Source of the DNA: a virus
Lineage: Duplodnaviria > Heunggongvirae > Uroviricota > Caudoviricetes
Direction: 5' to 3' (one strand)
IMG/VR virus record: IMGVR_UViG_2802429251_000007
Location: 1-30,664 of that record
DNA: 30,664 nt
Shown one piece after another: positions 16,767 to 23,669 of the stretch. A program made the position numbers and the translations under genes. A model generated the notes under the pieces. It made no database searches and had not been told where the DNA came from. It saw only the letters and a program-made list of their open reading frames with translations. The stretch's first letter is position 1. The number at the start of each line of letters is the position of its first letter.

Positions 16767-17912
16767 ATGGCACAGGGCTTGCCTGTATCAAACGTTGTTA
16801 ATGTTGATGTGATCATGTCGCCGCGTGCAGCATCAGGGCGAAATTTTGGTGCATTACTCATTCTCGGCCCGTCCACAATCATTCCGGTAAGTGAGCGCAT
16901 TCGCCGTTATTCTGCCGCGGAAGATATTGGAAAAGATTTTGGCGTGGAATCACCAGAATATAAGGCTGCGCAGGTGTTTTTCTCACAATCACCGAAACCT
17001 CAGGAGGTTTTTGTTGGTCGTTGGGTGAAAACGAAGGGAGACAGCGAACAGGCCACGCCTGAGACGCTGGAGCAGGCTGTGAATGCCATGCTCGATTATA
17101 CTTCATGGTATGGGCTGGGGATTGCAGACGATGAAGATATTCCGGATGCAGACTGGCTGAAAGTGGCTGCGGCGATCGAATCCTCTTCTGTAAGCCGTAT
17201 TCTGGCGATTACGACAAGCGATGAGAAATGCCTGCAGACTGCATCCAGCGATGATTTGGCATCAAAACTGAAAACCGCCGGATATTCACGCAGTTTTATT
17301 CAGTATTCATCGGGTAATAAATACGTTGCGTTATCTGCATTTGGCCGGGCATTCACGGTTAATTTCAATGGCAGTAATACCGCGATTACGCTCAAGTTTA
17401 AGCAGGAGCCGGGTGTCGGGTATGAAACACTGACAGTCAGCCAGGCATCGGCACTTGATGCAAAAAACTGCAATGTGTTCGTGTACTACCAGAATGATAC
17501 GGCTATCCTCCAGCAGGGAGTGATGGCTAACGGCGATTTCTTTGATGAACGCCACGGCCTGGACTGGTTACAGAATTATGTGCAGACCAACCTCTATAAC
17601 CTGCTTTATACCAGTACCACGAAAGTTCCCCAGACTGAAGCCGGTATTACCCGACTGTTATCAAATGTTGAAAAATCACTGGATCAGGCCGTTCAGAATG
17701 GACTGATTGCTCCGGGCGTATGGAACGGGGGCGACCTTGGTCAGTTGTCATCAGGTGACACACTGCCCAAAGGTTATTACGTATACGCTCAGCCGCTGGA
17801 TGAACAGGCTCAATCAGAACGTGAAGCCCGTAAGGCTCCGGTGATTCAGGCTGCAATAAAACTTGCAGGCGCGGTTCATTACGCTGACGTACAGATTAAC
17901 GTTGTTCGCTAA
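16767..17912 (+). CDS. putative tail sheath protein (DUF3383-like)
   Basis: 381 aa immediately before tube-like and chaperone genes; family recalled, not verified. Confidence 0.45.
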
Positions 17913-17922
17913 GGGGAAGTGA

Positions 17923-18363
17923 ATGTCTACCTATTCTTTTATGGATGTCACTGCGACGCTGACCGGGCCGACCGGTTCGATTGACCTCGGGTACGGTTCG
18001 GCAAGTTCTGAAGAGGGGATTGTGGTTGCGATGGGCGGTCCTAAAAACACCATGACCATCGGTGCTGATGGCGAAGTGATGCACAGTCTCCATGCAGATA
18101 AAAGCGGGACGATTACCGTTAACCTTCTGAAGACATCACCGACAAATAAAAAATTGTCGCTGGCGTATAACGCACAGAGCCAGTCTTCTGCCACATGGGG
18201 GAATAACGTTATCGTGATCCGCAACAAGGTCAGCGGCGACATCATCACGGCACGCAGTGTTGCGTTCCAGAAACAACCGGATAACGCCAACGCTAAAACC
18301 GGTAATACGATGCCGTGGGTATTTGACTGCGGCAAGATTGACCAGGTTCTCGGGGAGTTTTAA
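17923..18363 (+). CDS. putative tail tube protein (DUF3277-like)
   Basis: 146 aa between sheath-like and chaperone genes. Confidence 0.45.
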   Translation: MSTYSFMDVTATLTGPTGSIDLGYGSASSEEGIVVAMGGPKNTMTIGADGEVMHSLHADKSGTITVNLLKTSPTNKKLSLAYNAQSQSSATWGNNVIVIRNKVSGDIITARSVAFQKQPDNANAKTGNTMPWVFDCGKIDQVLGEF

Positions 18364-18366
18364 TAC

Positions 18367-18819
18367 ATGGAATTCGAAATCAAAGGCGTGAAATATCGCG
18401 TGGCAAAACTCAGCGTTTTTGACCAGCTGAAAGTGACCCGCAAACTTCTGCCGGTGCTGGCAGGAATGATGTCAGATTTCGGGAGCATTCGCTCCCGTTT
18501 GCCTGCTGATGGCAAAATCGACACCGTGAAATTCGAGCAGTTAAAACCGGTGTTTGAAACCATGCTCCCGCGTATCGCTGAGGAACTGTCTTCCCTGACC
18601 GAAGATGACACCGATGCGATTATTCATCCCTGTCTTGCGGTGGTGTCGCGGCGTCATATGGACGGATGGGTGCCGGTATTTACCCGGGGCGAACTGATGT
18701 TTGATGATATTGACCTGCTGGTCATGCTTCATCTGGTGGCGCGGGTGGTCGCCGATTCGCTGGGAAATTTTTTGCCTACACCCCTTACCAGCACGACGCA
18801 GAGCCTGCAACAGGGCTGA
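18367..18819 (+). CDS. tail assembly chaperone (G-like)
   Basis: 150 aa directly upstream of tape measure gene; carries slippery run near 3' end. Confidence 0.55.
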   Translation: MEFEIKGVKYRVAKLSVFDQLKVTRKLLPVLAGMMSDFGSIRSRLPADGKIDTVKFEQLKPVFETMLPRIAEELSSLTEDDTDAIIHPCLAVVSRRHMDGWVPVFTRGELMFDDIDLLVMLHLVARVVADSLGNFLPTPLTSTTQSLQQG

Positions 18820-19007
18820 CGTTTAACAGCCTGCCGGACGGGCTGTCCTACCTTCTCAATCCGGTTGACGCCGGGTTAATTCCTTATACAGCACTTAAAG
18901 ATGGCTCTGTCGATTTGTACGACATTGCTCTCTTGAATGACCATCTGGCGGTAAAAGCGGATAACCAGCGGCGCATTGAGAAATGGAGAGAGGATAATGA
19001 ACGCTGA
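18762..19007 (+). other. candidate programmed -1 frameshift site (GGGAAATTTTTTG) and 80-codon -1-frame extension (GT-like fusion)
   Basis: Overlapping XXXYYYZ heptamers at 18762-18774; -1 frame stays open from 18765 to TGA at 19005-19007. Confidence 0.5.
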
Positions 19008-20985
19008 AACTATTAAAGATTTCCTCGTCTCGCTTGGCTTCAGTGTGGATGATGCAGGAGCGAAAAAGTTCGGTTCTGTCCTCGCCGGTACAACGGCAAA
19101 TGTCATCAAAATGGGGCTGGCCGTTGAAGGAGCCGCGCTGTCCGTGGTGGCCTTCACGGCTAAGATCGCCTCCGGTCTGGATAATCTTTACTGGGCGTCA
19201 CAGCGCACCGGCGCGACAGTCCAGGGAATTCAGTCTATTGGCTATGCGGTTTCGCAGGTTGGCGGCAGCGTGGACGCTGCGCGATCTTCTCTGGAAAACC
19301 TCTCCCGGTTTATTCGTAATAATCCCGGGGCGGAGGGATTTCTGAATCGCCTGGGCGTACAGACCCGTGATGCCAGCGGTAACATGCGTGACATGGCCGC
19401 TATCTTTACGGGCGTTGGACAGAAACTCAGCAGCATGCCGTATTACCGGGCTAACCAGTATGCGCAGATGCTGGGCATTGACGAAAATACCCTTATGGCG
19501 ATGCGCCGGGGTGTGGGTGGCTTCTCCGGGCAGTACAGCGCAATGGCGAAAGCTATCGGCTTCAATGCTGACGAGGCGGCCAGAAGCTCCAACAAATTTA
19601 TGACCTCCTTGCGTGAGTTTAGCGCGATGGCAGGCATGGCCCGTGACAAAATCGGCTCTAATCTTGCGGGTGGGCTTGCAGGTTCGCTGGACACCCTGCG
19701 CCGCCATATCCTGGACAACTTCCCTCGTATCGAGCAGACCCTGACGAAAGCCATAAAAGGCATTCTGGCGCTCGGGGATATTATCGGGCGGCTGTTCTTC
19801 AGACTGATTGAGGGGACATCAGGCCTTATCACCTGGTGGCAATCGCTGGATAAGCAAACGCGGGAGTTGATCTCGCTGTTTGGCGCACTGACGATTGCGC
19901 TGCGCATTCTGAACAGTACGTTCTGGATGTCGCCGGTTGGCCTCATTACCGCGCTGGCGGCGGGGATTGCCCTCCTGTGGGAGGACTATCAGACCTGGAA
20001 GGAAGGCGGCGACAGCCTGATTGACTGGGGCAAGTGGAAACCGGAGGTCGATGCCGCGCTGAAGATGGTTCGTGACCTTAAAACGACCGTTAACGATCTG
20101 GCGAAAGCGCTGGCGAAACTACTCAATATTGACCCCAAATCATGGTCCCTGAAGTGGGATTTCAGCAACTTCATCGACCAGATGGGCGAATTCAGCAAAA
20201 TGCTGAACATGATCGCCGACCTGCTCAACGCTATCAAAGATGGACGCTGGGCTGATGCCGTCAGCATCGGCAAACAGATACTTAATCAGGGCAGCGAAAA
20301 TCCGTCAGCGATGCCGATGGTTACAGACAGCGCTAACAGTACTGCCGACTGGATTAAAGAGCACTGGGGATTCGATCCCCGCAGTGTGGGCCGGACGGTA
20401 CGCGGCTGGTTTGGTGATGATGAGCCGGAACAACATGCACAGGCTACGAAACGAGGAGAACGGAATAACAATCCGGGAAACCTTAATTTTGCTGGTCAGG
20501 CGGGGGCTTCTCTTGAACACCCGGGCGGGCGATTTGCCAGATTTGAAACTGCCTTTGATGGATTACGGGCTCTTGCTCGTCAGTTAATGTTGTACGCCGG
20601 GCGAGGAATAAACAGTGTGGAAAAAATTATCTCTACCTGGGCACCTGCCTCTGATAATAACAACACAACTGCGTATATCAGGGCTGTATCGCAACGACTG
20701 GGAGTGGATCCCCGGGCTGCCCTGAATATGAGCGATCCGAAAACCATGTCAGCATTGATGAGCAGCATTATCCAGCATGAAAATGGAAGAAATATCTATT
20801 CTCGAGAGCTGATTAATAAGGCTGCCGTGGCGGGAATTAGTGGCAAAATGACAGAGGTTAACCAGCAAAATACCTACCACATTTACGGTGGCGGAGATCC
20901 GCACGCTGTCGGTAATGAGGTTGCACGTCGGCAACAGTCTGCAAATGCTCAGGTTATGCGAAGTAATCAGGTGAGGGTGGGTTAG
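18997..20985 (+). CDS. tail tape measure protein
   Basis: 662 aa; hydrophobic TM-like central segments; follows chaperone; ATG 18997 with GGAGAGAGG upstream (ORF-track start 18976 is TTG). Confidence 0.8.
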   Translation: MNAETIKDFLVSLGFSVDDAGAKKFGSVLAGTTANVIKMGLAVEGAALSVVAFTAKIASGLDNLYWASQRTGATVQGIQSIGYAVSQVGGSVDAARSSLENLSRFIRNNPGAEGFLNRLGVQTRDASGNMRDMAAIFTGVGQKLSSMPYYRANQYAQMLGIDENTLMAMRRGVGGFSGQYSAMAKAIGFNADEAARSSNKFMTSLREFSAMAGMARDKIGSNLAGGLAGSLDTLRRHILDNFPRIEQTLTKAIKGILALGDIIGRLFFRLIEGTSGLITWWQSLDKQTRELISLFGALTIALRILNSTFWMSPVGLITALAAGIALLWEDYQTWKEGGDSLIDWGKWKPEVDAALKMVRDLKTTVNDLAKALAKLLNIDPKSWSLKWDFSNFIDQMGEFSKMLNMIADLLNAIKDGRWADAVSIGKQILNQGSENPSAMPMVTDSANSTADWIKEHWGFDPRSVGRTVRGWFGDDEPEQHAQATKRGERNNNPGNLNFAGQAGASLEHPGGRFARFETAFDGLRALARQLMLYAGRGINSVEKIISTWAPASDNNNTTAYIRAVSQRLGVDPRAALNMSDPKTMSALMSSIIQHENGRNIYSRELINKAAVAGISGKMTEVNQQNTYHIYGGGDPHAVGNEVARRQQSANAQVMRSNQVRVG

Positions 20986-21572
20986 TGGATATTCTCTCTA
21001 CACTTTTTCATCAGCAGAGCAGAAAAATAGGAATGATTGTTCCCAGTGTTGTTATTTCAGAGAAGCATACAGATATGCTTGAAATAACCGAGCATCCGGT
21101 AGAGGTTGGGGCTGCTGTCGCTGATCATGCCTATAAAAAACCGTCAGAAGTGGTGATGGAGGTTGGTTTCGCCGGTGGCGGCACATTGCTGGATTTTGCC
21201 AGTAACCTGACGGCTACCAGCCTGCTCGGCCTGAGTCCTCAGCAGACGTATCAGGAGCTACTGGATTTGCAGGAAAGCCGTATCCCCTTCGATGTGGTAA
21301 CCGGTAAACGGCTGTACAGCAACATGTTGATCCGGGCGCTGGAAGTGACGACGGACAAGACAACCGAAAATGTCCTGTCCGCCGTCCTTACCCTGAGGGA
21401 GGTCCTTATCTCCCGGACACAGCAGATTACCGTCGCGGATAAAACCAACATGAAGGAAGGGGCCAGCACGTCGGCGGTACAGAATAGCGGCAACAAAACC
21501 ACAAAGCCTCCAGATACTTCACTGCTGAAAAGCATTACGGGTAACGTGGCGTCATTACTGGGGGGCGGCTAA
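20985..21572 (+). CDS. tail/baseplate assembly protein, unknown family
   Basis: GTG start overlapping tape measure stop; position. Confidence 0.35.
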   Translation: MDILSTLFHQQSRKIGMIVPSVVISEKHTDMLEITEHPVEVGAAVADHAYKKPSEVVMEVGFAGGGTLLDFASNLTATSLLGLSPQQTYQELLDLQESRIPFDVVTGKRLYSNMLIRALEVTTDKTTENVLSAVLTLREVLISRTQQITVADKTNMKEGASTSAVQNSGNKTTKPPDTSLLKSITGNVASLLGGG

Positions 21573-21874
21573 TGACAATTCAGGAAATTCCGCTGACAGC
21601 GGACAATCAGCAGTTCAGCATCGTCCTGGGTGGTGTCACCTGGCGGATTAGCATCATATGGCGCGATCTGTACTGGATTATGGACCTGCAGAACGACAGA
21701 GGGGAGCCGGTAATCTCCGGTATTCCTCTCGTCACTGGTGCTGACCTGCTGGCGCAGTACGCCTGTATGGGGCTTGGTTTTAAGCTGGTGGTGGTCTGTG
21801 ATGACAACACACAGGATTACCCCACAAAAACTGACCTGGGCGGTCGCAGCCATTTACTGGTATCAACGGAGTAA
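21572..21874 (+). CDS. small tail/baseplate protein, unknown family
   Basis: ATGA overlap with upstream gene. Confidence 0.3.
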   Translation: MTIQEIPLTADNQQFSIVLGGVTWRISIIWRDLYWIMDLQNDRGEPVISGIPLVTGADLLAQYACMGLGFKLVVVCDDNTQDYPTKTDLGGRSHLLVSTE

Positions 21875-21876
21875 GC

Positions 21877-22941
21877 ATGTCACAGAACTGGATGAGACAT
21901 TTCGAGCTGCAGCTTGTGGACGGGAACGGTCAGGGAATTGAGCTAAGTGATTTCAAAGTCACCTTTACGATCGACTGGTTCAACATCAGCAGCGCGTCCC
22001 GGGTAGGGACTATCAAAATTTATAACCTCTCGGCAGATACTGTGAACCGAATCACTGGGAAGGAATTTTCGAAAGTGCGGCTGATTGCCGGTTACGACGG
22101 TATCGCGCCGGAGGTGGCGGCAAGCGACGTCGGGACCGTGCGCGAAGTCGACGCGGCGGACGTGGGCCAGACAGATGGCCGCAACTACGGACTGATTTTC
22201 AGCGGTGAAATTCGCTACTCGGTCACAGGAAAAGACAGTCCGGTTGATACCTACGTCCTGATTCAGGCAGCAGATACTGATCTGGCATTTGCCACCAGTA
22301 TAACCTCACAGACGCTGGCTGCCGGTTACACGGTCGCAGATGTGAACCGTGCGCTGATGAAAGACTTTGAGGCCAAAGGCGCGACCGAAGGACTGACGCC
22401 TGAAATGCCTGCTACCGTATACCCTCGAGGGCGGGTGCTGTTCGGCATGACACGGCATCTTATGGATAACGTGGCCGGACAATGTGGCGCAACATGGCAA
22501 TTTGTGGACGGTCAGCGCCAGATGGTGGCGAATAACGAGTATGTTCACGACGCGATTGTGCTCAACAGCGCCACCGGGCTTATCGGCATGCCGCAGCAGA
22601 CTATCGGCAACGGTGTAAACGTCCGCGCTCTTATTAATCCGAACATCCGGGTTAACGGGCTTATTCAGCTGGATCAGGCTTCCGTGTACCGCACCGCGCT
22701 GTCGAACAATGATATTGCGATGGCTGGTGGGCAGATCACCGACCAGAACACGGACGGAAATATCACGCTAAGCGGCACCACATCGCAGCCTGCCAGCATC
22801 GCAACGGATGGCGTTTATATTGTGCGCGGGATTATGTACACTGGCGACACAAGGGGCCAGGCGTGGTACATGGATATGATGTGCTTTGCTCGAGGTGCTA
22901 GTGATATTCCTAGCCAGTCAGCGATGAATCGAGGTGCATAA
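21877..22941 (+). CDS. putative baseplate hub protein
   Basis: 354 aa; position between tape measure and spike-like gene; GGAG RBS. Confidence 0.4.
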   Translation: MSQNWMRHFELQLVDGNGQGIELSDFKVTFTIDWFNISSASRVGTIKIYNLSADTVNRITGKEFSKVRLIAGYDGIAPEVAASDVGTVREVDAADVGQTDGRNYGLIFSGEIRYSVTGKDSPVDTYVLIQAADTDLAFATSITSQTLAAGYTVADVNRALMKDFEAKGATEGLTPEMPATVYPRGRVLFGMTRHLMDNVAGQCGATWQFVDGQRQMVANNEYVHDAIVLNSATGLIGMPQQTIGNGVNVRALINPNIRVNGLIQLDQASVYRTALSNNDIAMAGGQITDQNTDGNITLSGTTSQPASIATDGVYIVRGIMYTGDTRGQAWYMDMMCFARGASDIPSQSAMNRGA

Positions 22942-22943
22942 TA

Positions 22944-23669
22944 GTGAGCAGGCTTGCGATAACCACAATCGTATTTTCTCTTTTTTTAACTTCATGTAGT
23001 TGGGATCCTAATGGTGCTAAAGCGCAGGGAAAATGGCTATCCCAAAAAAATGAAGAAAAACAAGCGTACGATAAGCAAGTTGAGGAGAGCCAGAAAAGCA
23101 GGCTTCAAATACAGCGCGAAGAAAAGTCTCAATTTGAAGTTTCACATCCAGAGGTTATCGTTGCTGGTGTTGGGAACGAGCTTAAAAGTAAGGGTGCAGA
23201 ATCTTTGCGAGATGCGTACAACAGCATTCCATTCGTAACTCGTTATCCGGGAACCACGGACCCTAACAAAGTTTATACCTATGTCGGTGACTACAAATTA
23301 AATTTGCAACTGGTTAACACATCTGTGCTTTCTCAGATCTCAGATTGCAAACGCATTTCAGCGTATGCCGATGTTGATATTAATCGTACTTGCTTCAATC
23401 AAATTGGAAATGATTTGAGTTTGTTTGCATCTGTAATTAAAGACAAAAATATTACTGGAATTGCAAAAAAAGCAGCTCTACGAGATTCAACTTACGGAAC
23501 TAAAATTGATTTTGGTCATGCTGCGCGTTTAGCAAAAATGCATGCCACTTTATGCCAAAAGCAGGGCGGTAAAGGATTTGTCAAAATGTCGACTGTAGCT
23601 GTGCCTTGCGGCTCTTCAGGCGATGTAATTAACTATCGAAGCGCCGGTAAGATGGGGCTTATAAACTGA
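22944..23669 (+). CDS. lipoprotein (241 aa), moron-like accessory gene
   Basis: Signal peptide plus lipobox LFLTSC, +2 Ser; GTG start with GAGGTG upstream; visibly AT-rich versus flanking genes; own terminator downstream. Confidence 0.6.
   Translation: MSRLAITTIVFSLFLTSCSWDPNGAKAQGKWLSQKNEEKQAYDKQVEESQKSRLQIQREEKSQFEVSHPEVIVAGVGNELKSKGAESLRDAYNSIPFVTRYPGTTDPNKVYTYVGDYKLNLQLVNTSVLSQISDCKRISAYADVDINRTCFNQIGNDLSLFASVIKDKNITGIAKKAALRDSTYGTKIDFGHAARLAKMHATLCQKQGGKGFVKMSTVAVPCGSSGDVINYRSAGKMGLIN

What the first reader, a model, noticed from the sequence alone, without database searches (positions are those of the whole stretch)
18762..19007. Candidate programmed -1 frameshift in the tail assembly chaperone producing a GT-like fusion
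The chaperone gene contains the run GGGAAATTTTTTG (18762-18774), which holds overlapping XXXYYYZ slippery heptamers in the zero frame (G GGA AAT, A AAT TTT, T TTT TTG). The -1 frame is open from there for 80 codons (KFFAYTPYQHDAEPATGLTFNSLPDGLSYLL...EKWREDNER) and ends at 19005-19007, just inside the tape measure start. This mirrors the conserved G/GT frameshift architecture of tailed phages.
Basis: partly seen in the sequence, partly recalled or inferred. Interest (0 to 1): 0.5.

Follow-up and report, generated by a model that had tools for sequence, protein, structure and literature searches.

The report
Tail chaperone G/GT programmed −1 frameshift
The tail-assembly chaperone gene of this E. 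coli prophage has a conserved slippery sequence where some ribosomes probably slip back one base and make a longer fusion protein; this is a well-known feature of tailed phages, but reference annotation records the second half as a separate small gene.

Summary
The window is a SEN34-like E. coli myovirus prophage with the gene order sheath, tube, chaperone (18367-18819, Pfam Phage_TAC_15), tape measure (18997-20985). GGGAAATTTTTTG sits at 18762-74 with three in-frame X_XXY_YYZ heptamers. The −1 frame is open from 18714 to 19007.

The −1 extension is real coding sequence. It matches Pfam DUF6889 (E=1e-20). Among 52 close variants, 33 of 43 variable sites fall at its third codon positions. It has no ATG or GTG, and its only TTG starts fall inside the domain.

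In an IMG/VR scan, 98 of 100 loci carrying this domain have a TAC_15 gene overlapping it in exactly the frame that makes the domain −1. In 43 of 44 lineages a Phe codon preceded by T (T_TTY) sits at the same spot, within AAATTTT, CCCTTTT or GGGTTTT. This favours A_AAU_UUU (18765-71), which belongs to a class that is efficient in E. coli.

The predicted product is a 213-aa GT fusion, join(18367..18771,18771..19007). I found no conserved downstream structure. A strong anti-Shine-Dalgarno match (GGGTGGTC, 18743-50) lies 11-14 nt upstream and may stimulate the shift.

This is an ordinary case. Homologues in phages Mulock and Magia are already annotated as frameshift products. RefSeq instead calls a 54-aa "DUF6889 protein" starting at CTG.

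The parts
16767..17912 (+). Tail sheath gene (context)
   Evidence: Pfam DUF3383 E=9e-101; PHROG 205 'tail sheath' E=1.5e-135
17923..18363 (+). Tail tube gene (context; the likely binding partner of the T domain, by analogy with lambda)
   Evidence: Pfam KPP10_Orf10 (annotated as DUF3277 in RefSeq) E=9e-61; the binding role is inferred, not tested
18367..18819 (+). G: zero-frame tail assembly chaperone ORF, 150 aa
   Evidence: Pfam PF21822 Phage_TAC_15 E=2e-30; PHROG 1688 'tail assembly chaperone' E=1e-64; annotated 'phage tail assembly chaperone' in RefSeq
18743..18750 (+). GGGTGGTC, an internal Shine-Dalgarno-like sequence and candidate 5' frameshift stimulator. It lies 11 nt upstream of heptamer 1 and 14 nt upstream of heptamer 2.
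   Evidence: Duplex with the 16S 3' tail is -12.2 to -13.4 kcal/mol, against -7.6 and -8.3 for the real SDs of G and the tape measure gene. Only 0.47% of 12-nt windows in 16767-22941 reach this value, and only 2% of synonymous recodings do. It sits in a stretch of raised synonymous-site conservation. The stimulatory role is inferred.
18762..18774 (+). Slippery run GGGAAATTTTTTG with three overlapping in-frame heptamers
   Evidence: invariant in all relatives down to about 70% nucleotide identity
18765..18771 (+). A_AAT_TTT, the favoured shift site (tRNA-Asn in the P site, tRNA-Phe in the A site)
   Evidence: An in-frame T_TTY occupies the homologous spot in 43 of 44 lineages. It sits within AAATTTT (16 lineages), CCCTTTT (11), GGGTTTT (2) or CCCTTTC (1). 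In several lineages a -1 stop lies 1-2 codons upstream. H_HH.U_UU.Y is a top-efficiency motif class in E. coli (PMC4066793).
18771..19007 (+). T: the -1 frame extension, 78 codons plus stop; the DUF6889 core lies at about 18882-18998
   Evidence: Pfam PF21829 DUF6889 E=1.3e-20; PHROG 4364 E=2e-23. In 18820-19004, 33 of 43 variable sites are at third positions of the -1 frame, and syn/non is 37/11 there against 6/42 in the G frame.
18997..20985 (+). Tape measure protein gene; its start overlaps the T stop by 11 nt
   Evidence: PHROG 2276 'tail length tape measure protein' E=8e-283; the RefSeq CDS starts at the equivalent ATG

Best explanation
Gene 18367-18819 encodes the tail assembly chaperone of a SEN34-like contractile-tailed prophage. 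Most ribosomes terminate at 18817-19 and make the 150-aa G protein. A minority slip back one base in the run GGGAAATTTTTTG. The most likely site is A_AAU_UUU (18765-18771): tRNA-Asn and tRNA-Phe re-pair on AAA and UUU, and translation continues in the -1 frame to the TGA at 19005-07. The product is a 213-aa fusion, join(18367..18771,18771..19007), with the junction ...ADSLGNF-FAYTPYQ... . It carries the DUF6889 'T' domain on the G body.

By analogy with lambda G/GT and P2 E/E+E', the G part would coat the tape measure protein and the T domain would recruit the tube protein. A fixed low GT:G ratio would be set by the frameshift efficiency, and neither protein would end up in the virion. An unusually strong internal Shine-Dalgarno-like sequence (GGGUGGUC, 18743-50) lies 11-14 nt upstream. 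It may pair with 16S rRNA in the elongating ribosome and stimulate the slip, as in dnaX. No downstream structure seems to be involved.

What is shown: the anatomy, the coding status of the -1 frame, and the conservation of the architecture and motif. What is inferred: that the fusion is made, the exact codon of the slip, the stimulatory role of the SD-like sequence, and the protein functions.
For: - Gene order is sheath, tube, chaperone, tape measure, with Phage_TAC_15 and PHROG chaperone hits.
- Three in-frame heptamers are present, and the -1 frame is open from 18714 to 19007.
- The -1 extension matches DUF6889 (E=1.3e-20) and PHROG 4364.
- Among 52 close variants, changes in 18820-19004 fall at third positions of the -1 frame (33 of 43 sites). 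Syn/non is 37/11 in the -1 frame and 6/42 in the G frame.
- The -1 ORF has no ATG or GTG. Its only TTG codons fall inside the domain. RefSeq has to use a CTG at 18843, which cuts off the family-invariant Leu-Pro motif at 18831-36.
- Start codons for the T ORF are not conserved. 12 of 42 lineages have no canonical start at all upstream of that motif.
- The 13-mer is invariant in 10 diverged phages and 80 of 80 close loci.
- Relatives at 26-39% identity in Bordetella, Acinetobacter, Burkholderia, Ralstonia and Providencia phages keep the -1 T ORF.
- In the IMG/VR scan, 98 of 100 loci with the T domain have a TAC_15 ORF overlapping it in exactly the required frame.
- In-frame T_TTY is present at the homologous site in 43 of 44 lineages. 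The preceding triplet covaries as AAA, CCC or GGG, and -1 stops 1-2 codons upstream pin the site in several lineages.
- The E. coli motif hierarchy places H_HH.U_UU.Y among the best heptamers and U_UU.Y second among tetramers (PMC4066793).
- The SD-like element gives -12.2 kcal/mol, is reached by 2% of synonymous recodings, and has an 11-14 nt spacer, within the 9-14 nt range reported for -1 shifts (PMC5009743). Synonymous-site conservation rises from about 18724.
- Annotators of Klebsiella phage Mulock and Burkholderia phage Magia already entered joined 'tape measure chaperone frameshift product' CDSs for the homologues.
Against: - There is no direct protein evidence for the fusion in this phage group. 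I found no paper mentioning DUF6889, and the Mulock genome paper does not discuss the frameshift.
- The exact slip codon is not resolved. The synonymous G at 18762 (the third base of a Leu codon) is invariant in the 10 diverged relatives and is kept in Bordetella and Acinetobacter phages, which suggests G_GGA_AAU also matters. T_TTT_TTG is the proven P2 site.
- Some relatives have an ATG or GTG that could start a standalone T protein: Klebsiella phages ST11 and GZ7 and Edwardsiella phage ZHS. A mixed mode of expression cannot be excluded there.
- Support for the SD-like element is only modest family-wide. 42% of 43 lineages have p<=0.2, against 20% expected. The conserved R/K-V-V/I peptide partly forces G-rich codons.
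- No downstream stimulator was found, so the efficiency may be low.
Confidence: 0.88

Rival explanations
1. A -1 ribosomal frameshift occurs, but at a different heptamer of the same run. One option is T_TTT_TTG (18768-74), as in phage P2 E/E+E', which would give the junction ...GNFLAYTP. The other is G_GGA_AAT (18762-68), which gives the same protein as the favoured site. The shift could also be spread over several of them.
For: - P2 shifts at TTTTTTG in E. coli (Christie 2002, as cited in PMC3091744).
- All 13 nt are invariant in the enteric clade.
- The synonymous G at 18762 is conserved, and three lineages (Bordetella-type) keep G_GGA_AAT but break A_AAT_TTT.
Against: - TTTTTTG is present in only 11 of 44 lineages and GGGAAAT in 14 of 44, whereas T_TTY is present in 43 of 44.
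- A_AA.U and U_UU.G are not among the frameshift-prone A-site tetramers in E. coli (PMC4066793).
- The Bordetella-type sequences still carry an in-frame T_TTC one codon downstream.
Confidence: 0.3
2. The DUF6889 ORF is translated on its own as a small (about 54-aa) protein from a non-canonical start, as RefSeq annotates it (CTG at 18843), or by reinitiation after the G stop. No frameshift is involved.
For: - PGAP annotates a 'DUF6889 family protein' at the equivalent of 18843-19007 in more than 300 E. coli genomes.
- Protein databases hold only short standalone entries of 46-78 aa.
- A few relatives have an ATG 50-69 codons before the stop.
Against: - The -1 ORF has no ATG or GTG, and its only TTG codons are inside the domain.
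- The CTG start lies downstream of the family-invariant Leu-Pro motif.
- Start codons are not conserved in position or presence, whereas the slippery motif and the exact -1 overlap are.
- The stop-start overlap CTGA at 18816-19 is not conserved in SEN34, Mulock or Omnitron.
Confidence: 0.06
3. The frame change happens at the RNA level. RNA polymerase slips on the T6 run, producing a fraction of mRNAs with one base fewer (or two more), and these are then translated normally into the fusion.
For: A homopolymeric T6 run is present. Transcriptional slippage is a known route to such fusions in some IS elements and in Thermus dnaX (PMC5009743).
Against: Efficient slippage is described for runs of about 9 A or T (PMC5009743). 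Here the run is 6 nt. Many relatives that keep the same architecture have only T4, for example CCT TTT ATT and AAT TTT ATT. So a run-length-dependent mechanism cannot be the family-wide one.
Confidence: 0.03
4. The arrangement has no function. It is a chance open frame, or a frameshift mutation or sequencing error that split one gene.
For: In-frame heptamers are common: 46 in this window.
Against: The same split, in the same relative frame, is found in 98 of 100 independent loci and 44 lineages. There is codon-position-specific purifying selection in the -1 frame and a Pfam domain match. No in-frame fused version was found among the loci examined.
Confidence: 0.01

Closest known systems
Bacteriophage lambda G/GT tail assembly chaperones (Levin 1993; Xu, Hendrix and Duda 2004, 2013, 2014, as summarised in PMC5009743)
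   Same: - The position is the same: between the major tail/tube gene and the tape measure gene.
- There are two overlapping ORFs, and the second is in the -1 frame without its own start.
- The slippery heptamer lies near the end of G.
- No downstream structure is needed.
- The first heptamer here (G_GGA_AAU) differs from lambda's G_GGA_AAG by one base. That lambda sequence is recalled from my own knowledge, not checked here.
   Different: - There is no detectable sequence homology. G here is Pfam Phage_TAC_15 and T is DUF6889.
- This is a contractile-tailed phage.
- The A-site codon of the favoured heptamer is UUU (Phe), not AAG (Lys).
- A strong upstream SD-like sequence is present.
- The product and the ratio have not been measured.
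Phage P2 E / E+E' (Christie et al. 2002; cited in PMC3091744)
   Same: It is an E. coli myovirus. The -1 shift in the chaperone gene upstream of the tape measure gene occurs at TTTTTTG, and the same heptamer is present here at 18768-74. No downstream hairpin is present.
   Different: The protein family is different: G hits only PF21822 among Pfam families. In this family TTTTTTG is lineage-specific, and the shared element is T_TTY one codon earlier.
Klebsiella phage Mulock CPT_Mulock_014/015 and Burkholderia phage Magia gp15/gp16 (GenBank annotations)
   Same: These are true homologues of G and T, at 58% and 26% amino-acid identity in G. They are already annotated as 'tape measure chaperone' plus a joined 'frameshift product'. 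Mulock has the identical 13-mer.
   Different: Those annotations are bioinformatic only. The Mulock genome paper does not mention the frameshift. Magia uses C_CCT_TTT. RefSeq annotation of the E. coli prophages does not carry the join.
E. coli dnaX and IS3-family -1 frameshift cassettes
   Same: There is an internal Shine-Dalgarno-like sequence 9-14 nt upstream of the shift site (PMC5009743). Here the spacer is 11-14 nt and the anti-SD pairing is very strong.
   Different: The downstream stem-loop or pseudoknot that those cassettes have is absent. The heptamer is not A_AAA_AAG. The role of the SD-like sequence is untested and only weakly supported outside the enteric clade.

Membership tests
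G/GT-type tail assembly chaperone with programmed -1 frameshift (Xu, Hendrix and Duda 2004) | The gene pair lies between the major tail (tube) gene and the tape measure gene | tested here: met
   Tube 17923-18363, G 18367-18819, T ending at 19007, tape measure 18997-20985
G/GT-type tail assembly chaperone with programmed -1 frameshift (Xu, Hendrix and Duda 2004) | The second ORF overlaps the end of the first in the -1 frame and has no start codon of its own | tested here: met
   The -1 frame is open from 18714 to 19007 and overlaps G by 106 nt. It has no ATG or GTG, and its only TTG codons are inside the domain. Starts are not conserved across 42 lineages.
G/GT-type tail assembly chaperone with programmed -1 frameshift (Xu, Hendrix and Duda 2004) | A slippery sequence in the overlap, in the correct register and conserved in relatives | tested here: met
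   Three in-frame heptamers are present. The 13-mer is invariant in close and mid-distance relatives. T_TTY occupies the homologous site in 43 of 44 lineages.
G/GT-type tail assembly chaperone with programmed -1 frameshift (Xu, Hendrix and Duda 2004) | The -1 extension is a real, selected coding sequence | tested here: met
   DUF6889 E=1.3e-20 and PHROG 4364. 33 of 43 variable sites are at third positions of the -1 frame, and syn/non is 37/11.
G/GT-type tail assembly chaperone with programmed -1 frameshift (Xu, Hendrix and Duda 2004) | The upstream ORF is a tail assembly chaperone | tested here: met
   PF21822 Phage_TAC_15 E=2e-30 and PHROG 1688 E=1e-64. This rests on family names only. No solved homologue was found by sequence, and the fold was not modelled.
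G/GT-type tail assembly chaperone with programmed -1 frameshift (Xu, Hendrix and Duda 2004) | Both G and the GT fusion are made in vivo in a fixed ratio, are needed for tail assembly, and are absent from virions | not testable with these tools
   Needs protein detection, reporter assays and genetics. No published data were found for this family.
dnaX / IS-type stimulated -1 frameshift cassette | An internal Shine-Dalgarno-like sequence 9-14 nt 5' of the shift site | tested here: inconclusive
   The feature is present and strong in the window: -12.2 kcal/mol, spacer 11-14 nt, 2% of synonymous recodings, top 0.5% of windows. Family-wide enrichment is only modest, and the function is untested.
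dnaX / IS-type stimulated -1 frameshift cassette | A stable, conserved stem-loop or pseudoknot 5-9 nt 3' of the shift site | tested here: not met
   Folding of 18775-18860 and 18775-18900 gives z = -1.0. The consensus fold of 10 relatives shows no helix next to the site and no compensatory pairs.
Phage P2 E/E+E' family | Shift at TTTTTTG, and homology to P2 gpE | tested here: inconclusive
   The heptamer is present in frame. However, G matches only Phage_TAC_15 in Pfam, and TTTTTTG is absent from 33 of 44 lineages. A direct comparison with the P2 E sequence was not run.
Standalone 'DUF6889 family protein' gene (RefSeq/PGAP model) | Its own start codon, with conserved sequence beginning at or after that start | tested here: not met
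   The annotated start is CTG at 18843. The invariant Leu-Pro motif and conserved residues lie upstream of it. No canonical start is available.
Transcriptional slippage site | A homopolymer run long enough for polymerase slippage (about 9 nt), kept in relatives | tested here: not met
   The run is T6 here and T4 in many relatives with the same architecture. The run-length requirement is taken from PMC5009743.

The most novel reading that the evidence does not exclude
The enteric clade may have evolved a composite, stimulated frameshift cassette rather than a plain lambda-like slippery site. This would be a 13-nt run in which E-, P- and A-site tRNAs (GGG AAA UUU) can all re-pair, with three usable heptamers, driven by an unusually strong upstream anti-Shine-Dalgarno match. 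It could give a GT:G ratio well above the few per cent seen in lambda. It would also be the first SD-stimulated chaperone frameshift. In addition, Pfam DUF6889 would be defined as the tube-recruiting T domain of the Pam3/E217/KPP10-type simple contractile tails.
Probability: 0.25. Interest if true: 0.4.

Novelty: new member of a known kind. Interest (0 to 1): 0.2.

Why it matters
The main value is for annotation. More than 300 complete E. coli genomes carry this prophage module. In the RefSeq records I inspected, the T domain is entered as an independent 54-aa "DUF6889 family protein" with a CTG start. Older records call it "NTP pyrophosphohydrolase". The 213-aa fusion is missing from all of them.

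Recognising DUF6889 as the frameshift-encoded T domain of Phage_TAC_15 chaperones gives a function to a domain of unknown function. It also corrects the gene model for a widespread group of simple contractile-tailed phages in Escherichia, Salmonella, Klebsiella, Yersinia, Acinetobacter, Burkholderia, Bordetella and Ralstonia.

The family also provides a natural covariation series (A_AAU_UUU, C_CCU_UUU, G_GGU_UUU, bare U_UUY) and a candidate Shine-Dalgarno stimulator. These could be used to study how frameshift efficiency is tuned. None of this changes the current understanding of phage tail assembly.

Tried and rejected
- Downstream stimulatory structure. Single-sequence folds of 18775-18860 and 18775-18900 are no better than shuffles (z about -1). 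The consensus fold of 10 relatives has no helix adjacent to the site and no compensatory pairs. Rejected.
- Upstream hairpin around 18736-18753. It is weak (the fold of 18720-18762 has z = +0.8), so I did not pursue it. The anti-SD reading fits better.
- The search for related loci on genome contigs with alignments of G (A2) and T (A3). I replaced them with a degenerate DNA pattern for DIALMND on viral contigs.
- The search for related loci with the single G protein. It returned only relatives at 94-100% identity. These were useful for polymorphism counts but not for depth.
- Literature. No paper mentions DUF6889. The Mulock announcement does not discuss the frameshift. A search for SEN34 plus frameshift found nothing relevant.
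- PDB sequence search with the 213-aa fusion. No meaningful hit.
- Structure prediction and fold search were not run.
- Locus L187, the one complete locus lacking a G hit in the expected frame, is a high-GC contig with long spurious open frames. It is not an in-frame GT fusion.
Full report
**What is there.** The window carries the tail module of a contractile-tailed prophage. The genes are a sheath gene (16767-17912, DUF3383, PHROG 'tail sheath'), a tube gene (17923-18363, KPP10_Orf10/DUF3277), a 150-aa ORF (18367-18819) and a tape measure gene (18997-20985, PHROG 2276, E=8e-283). After these come Dit-like, Pam3-gp18-like plug and hub genes. The 150-aa ORF is a Pfam Phage_TAC_15 (E=2e-30) and a PHROG 'tail assembly chaperone' (E=1e-64). 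The DNA is 98-99.6% identical to prophages in about 300 of 5,426 complete E. coli genomes and to induced Escherichia phages. It is 77-84% identical to Salmonella phage SEN34 (Brunovirus) and Yersinia phage YP3.

**Checking the observation.** The zero frame reads CTG GGA AAT TTT TTG at 18760-74. So G_GGA_AAT (18762), A_AAT_TTT (18765) and T_TTT_TTG (18768) are all in the X_XXY_YYZ register. The -1 frame opens at 18714 and closes at the TGA at 19005-07, 11 nt inside the tape measure gene. In-frame heptamers are not rare in this window: there are 46. Only 3.9% of codon positions have a -1 frame open for 81 codons or more. The only other heptamers followed by long -1 frames running past the stop are the textbook IS1 site and a trivial overlap with the next gene. 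That result serves as a positive control for the scan.

**Is the -1 frame coding?** Yes.
- Its translation matches Pfam DUF6889 (E=1.3e-20) and PHROG 4364.
- Among 52 distinct close variants, 33 of the 43 variable sites between the G stop and the T stop fall at third positions of the -1 frame. Changes there are 37 synonymous to 11 non-synonymous in the -1 frame, against 6 to 42 in the G frame.
- In the 42-nt dual-coded stretch, the -1 frame (11/15) is better preserved than the G frame (5/21).

**Can it be translated on its own?** The -1 ORF has no ATG or GTG. Its only TTG codons lie inside the DUF6889 core. RefSeq solves this by starting a 54-aa 'DUF6889 family protein' at the CTG at 18843. 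That start cuts off a Leu-Pro motif that is invariant across the family. Across 42 lineages there is no conserved start, and 12 have no canonical start upstream of that motif. A CTGA stop-start overlap at the G stop is not conserved either.

**Comparative evidence.**
- In ten phages or prophages at about 70-99% nucleotide identity, the 13-mer is invariant and lies 45-57 nt before the G stop, while the flanks diverge. These are from Escherichia, Salmonella, Yersinia, Citrobacter, Klebsiella, Hafnia and 'Elizabethkingia' hosts.
- All 80 close IMG/VR loci keep the 13-mer.
- Relatives with only 26-39% identity in G still have a -1 ORF encoding the same T domain. These are Bordetella, Acinetobacter, Burkholderia, Ralstonia and Providencia phages.
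- A degenerate pattern for the T-domain motif DIALMND retrieved 100 IMG/VR loci with the domain. In 98 of them a TAC_15 homologue overlaps it in exactly the frame that makes T the -1 frame.
- Of the two exceptions, one is cut by a contig end and the other is a GC-rich contig with spurious long frames.

**Which codon slips?** I aligned the homologous 'LG(N/P/G)F' site in 99 sequences, which gave 68 distinct nucleotide variants in 44 lineages at 70% amino-acid identity.
- The common denominator is an in-frame T_TTY, a Phe codon preceded by T, found in 43 of 44 lineages.
- It is embedded in A_AAT_TTT (16 lineages), C_CCT_TTT (11), G_GGT_TTT (2) or C_CCT_TTC (1). In the remaining 13 lineages the first T_TTY is not part of a canonical heptamer; in some of these the next codon is also TTT, which makes T_TTT_TTT.
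- The covariation of the first triplet with a fixed TTT is what tandem slippage predicts.
- In several lineages a -1-frame stop lies one or two codons before the TTT. This leaves no other place to shift.
- GGGAAAT occurs in only 14 lineages and TTTTTTG in only 11.

Published measurements in E. coli rank the tetramers A_AA.G > U_UU.Y > C_CC.Y > A_AA.A. They list H_HH.U_UU.Y among the most efficient heptamers (PMC4066793). A_AA.U and U_UU.G are not on that list.

I therefore place the shift at A_AAU_UUU, 18765-71. The product is join(18367..18771,18771..19007), 213 aa, with the junction ...ADSLGNF|FAYTPYQ.

Two caveats apply. The synonymous G at 18762 is conserved wherever GGA AAT occurs in most lineages, which hints that G_GGA_AAU (or E-site re-pairing) contributes. 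And T_TTT_TTG is the experimentally established site of P2 E/E+E'. Heptamers 1 and 2 give the same protein. Heptamer 3 would give Leu instead of the second Phe.

**Stimulators.** Folds of 18775-18860 and 18775-18900 are no better than shuffles (z about -1). The consensus fold of ten relatives shows no helix next to the site and no compensatory pairs. This matches what is reported for P2.

The unexpected feature is upstream.
- Synonymous-site identity among ten diverged relatives rises from 0.35-0.65 over most of G to 0.8-0.88 from about 18724 onward. That is roughly 40 nt before any dual coding begins.
- This stretch contains GGGTGGTC (18743-50), which can pair with the 16S 3' tail (GAUCACCU) at -12.2 to -13.4 kcal/mol.
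- That is stronger than the real Shine-Dalgarno sequences of G (-7.6) and the tape measure gene (-8.3). Only 0.47% of 12-nt windows in the tail genes reach it, and no other window in G does.
- Only 2% of synonymous recodings of the same peptide do as well.
- The spacer is 11 nt to heptamer 1 and 14 nt to heptamer 2. This is inside the 9-14 nt range reported for SD-stimulated -1 shifts (PMC5009743).
- Across the family the signal is weaker: 42% of 43 lineages have p<=0.2 against 20% expected. The conserved R/K-V-V/I peptide favours G-rich codons.

I treat this element as a plausible, lineage-specific stimulator, not as an established part of the mechanism.

**Mechanism and function.** The parts shown here are the anatomy, the selection on the -1 frame and the conservation of the site. 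The rest is inferred from lambda G/GT and P2 E/E+E' (PMC5009743; PMC3091744):
- G coats the tape measure protein.
- The rarer GT uses its T domain (here DUF6889) to recruit the tube protein.
- The frameshift efficiency fixes the ratio.
- Neither protein stays in the virion.

**Rivals.**
- Independent translation of DUF6889 (the RefSeq model) fails on the missing start and the truncated conserved motif.
- Transcriptional slippage fails because the run is only T6 here and T4 in many relatives.
- Chance or a pseudogene is excluded by the 98 of 100 result and by the codon-position bias.

**Novelty.** The phenomenon is classical. Homologues in Klebsiella phage Mulock and Burkholderia phage Magia are already annotated with joined 'tape measure chaperone frameshift product' CDSs. 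The modestly new points are:
- the link between DUF6889 and the T domain;
- the family-wide definition of the site as U_UUY with a covarying upstream triplet;
- the candidate SD stimulator;
- the finding that the RefSeq gene model in the E. coli records I inspected omits the fusion.

The finding is correct and ordinary, and I score its interest as low.

Noticed in passing
window 3730-4427 (+): An IS1 element is inserted in the prophage. It has InsA (3730-4005; Pfam Zn_ribbon_InsA and HTH_Tnp_IS1) and InsB (3924-4427; DDE_Tnp_IS1). The classic A_AAA_AAC -1 frameshift site lies at 3981-3987 and leads into a 148-codon -1 frame. It was the top hit of my heptamer scan and served as a positive control.
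   Followed up: partly
window 18724-18762 (+): Synonymous sites in the roughly 40 nt upstream of the slippery run are much more conserved than in the rest of G (0.8-0.88 against 0.35-0.65). No second reading frame is used there. The stretch contains a very strong anti-Shine-Dalgarno match, GGGTGGTC. This could be a frameshift stimulator, but recent exchange of this segment between phages has not been excluded.
   Followed up: partly
window 18843-19007 (+); L001 1977-2141: RefSeq/PGAP annotates the T domain as a standalone 54-aa 'DUF6889 family protein' starting at CTG. Older GenBank entries name the same ORF 'NTP pyrophosphohydrolase', which looks like a propagated misnomer.
   Followed up: yes
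window 22944-23669 (+): A 241-aa ORF lies between the hub gene and the next baseplate gene. It begins with a lipoprotein-like signal (…FSLFLTSCSW…) and has no Pfam match. It may be an accessory gene ('moron') or an exclusion gene inside the tail module.
   Followed up: no
window 18997-20985 (+): The C-terminal third of the tape measure protein (about residues 440-650) matches PHROG families labelled endolysin, transglycosylase or 'tail injection transglycosylase'. RefSeq names the whole protein 'lytic transglycosylase'. It is probably a tape measure protein with a built-in cell-wall-degrading domain.
   Followed up: no
L092 (Edwardsiella phage vB_EpM_ZHS) 1290-1574: This distant relative has GGG GAT TTT at the homologous site, so only the T_TTT tetramer and no canonical heptamer. 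Its T ORF has its own ATG 69 codons before the stop and is annotated as a separate gene. This lineage may express T both ways, or may have moved to independent expression.
   Followed up: no
L096 (Acinetobacter phage Ab105-1phi) about 1302-1330; L094/L097 (Burkholderia phages) about 1278-1310 and 1398-1430: The dual-coded stretch just after the slip site (TTTTATTCAAGGGCTGCTTAC) is almost identical at the nucleotide level between Acinetobacter and Burkholderia phages, although their hosts are only distantly related (from my own knowledge these host genera also differ widely in G+C content; not measured here). This shows how tightly two overlapping frames constrain the sequence.
   Followed up: no
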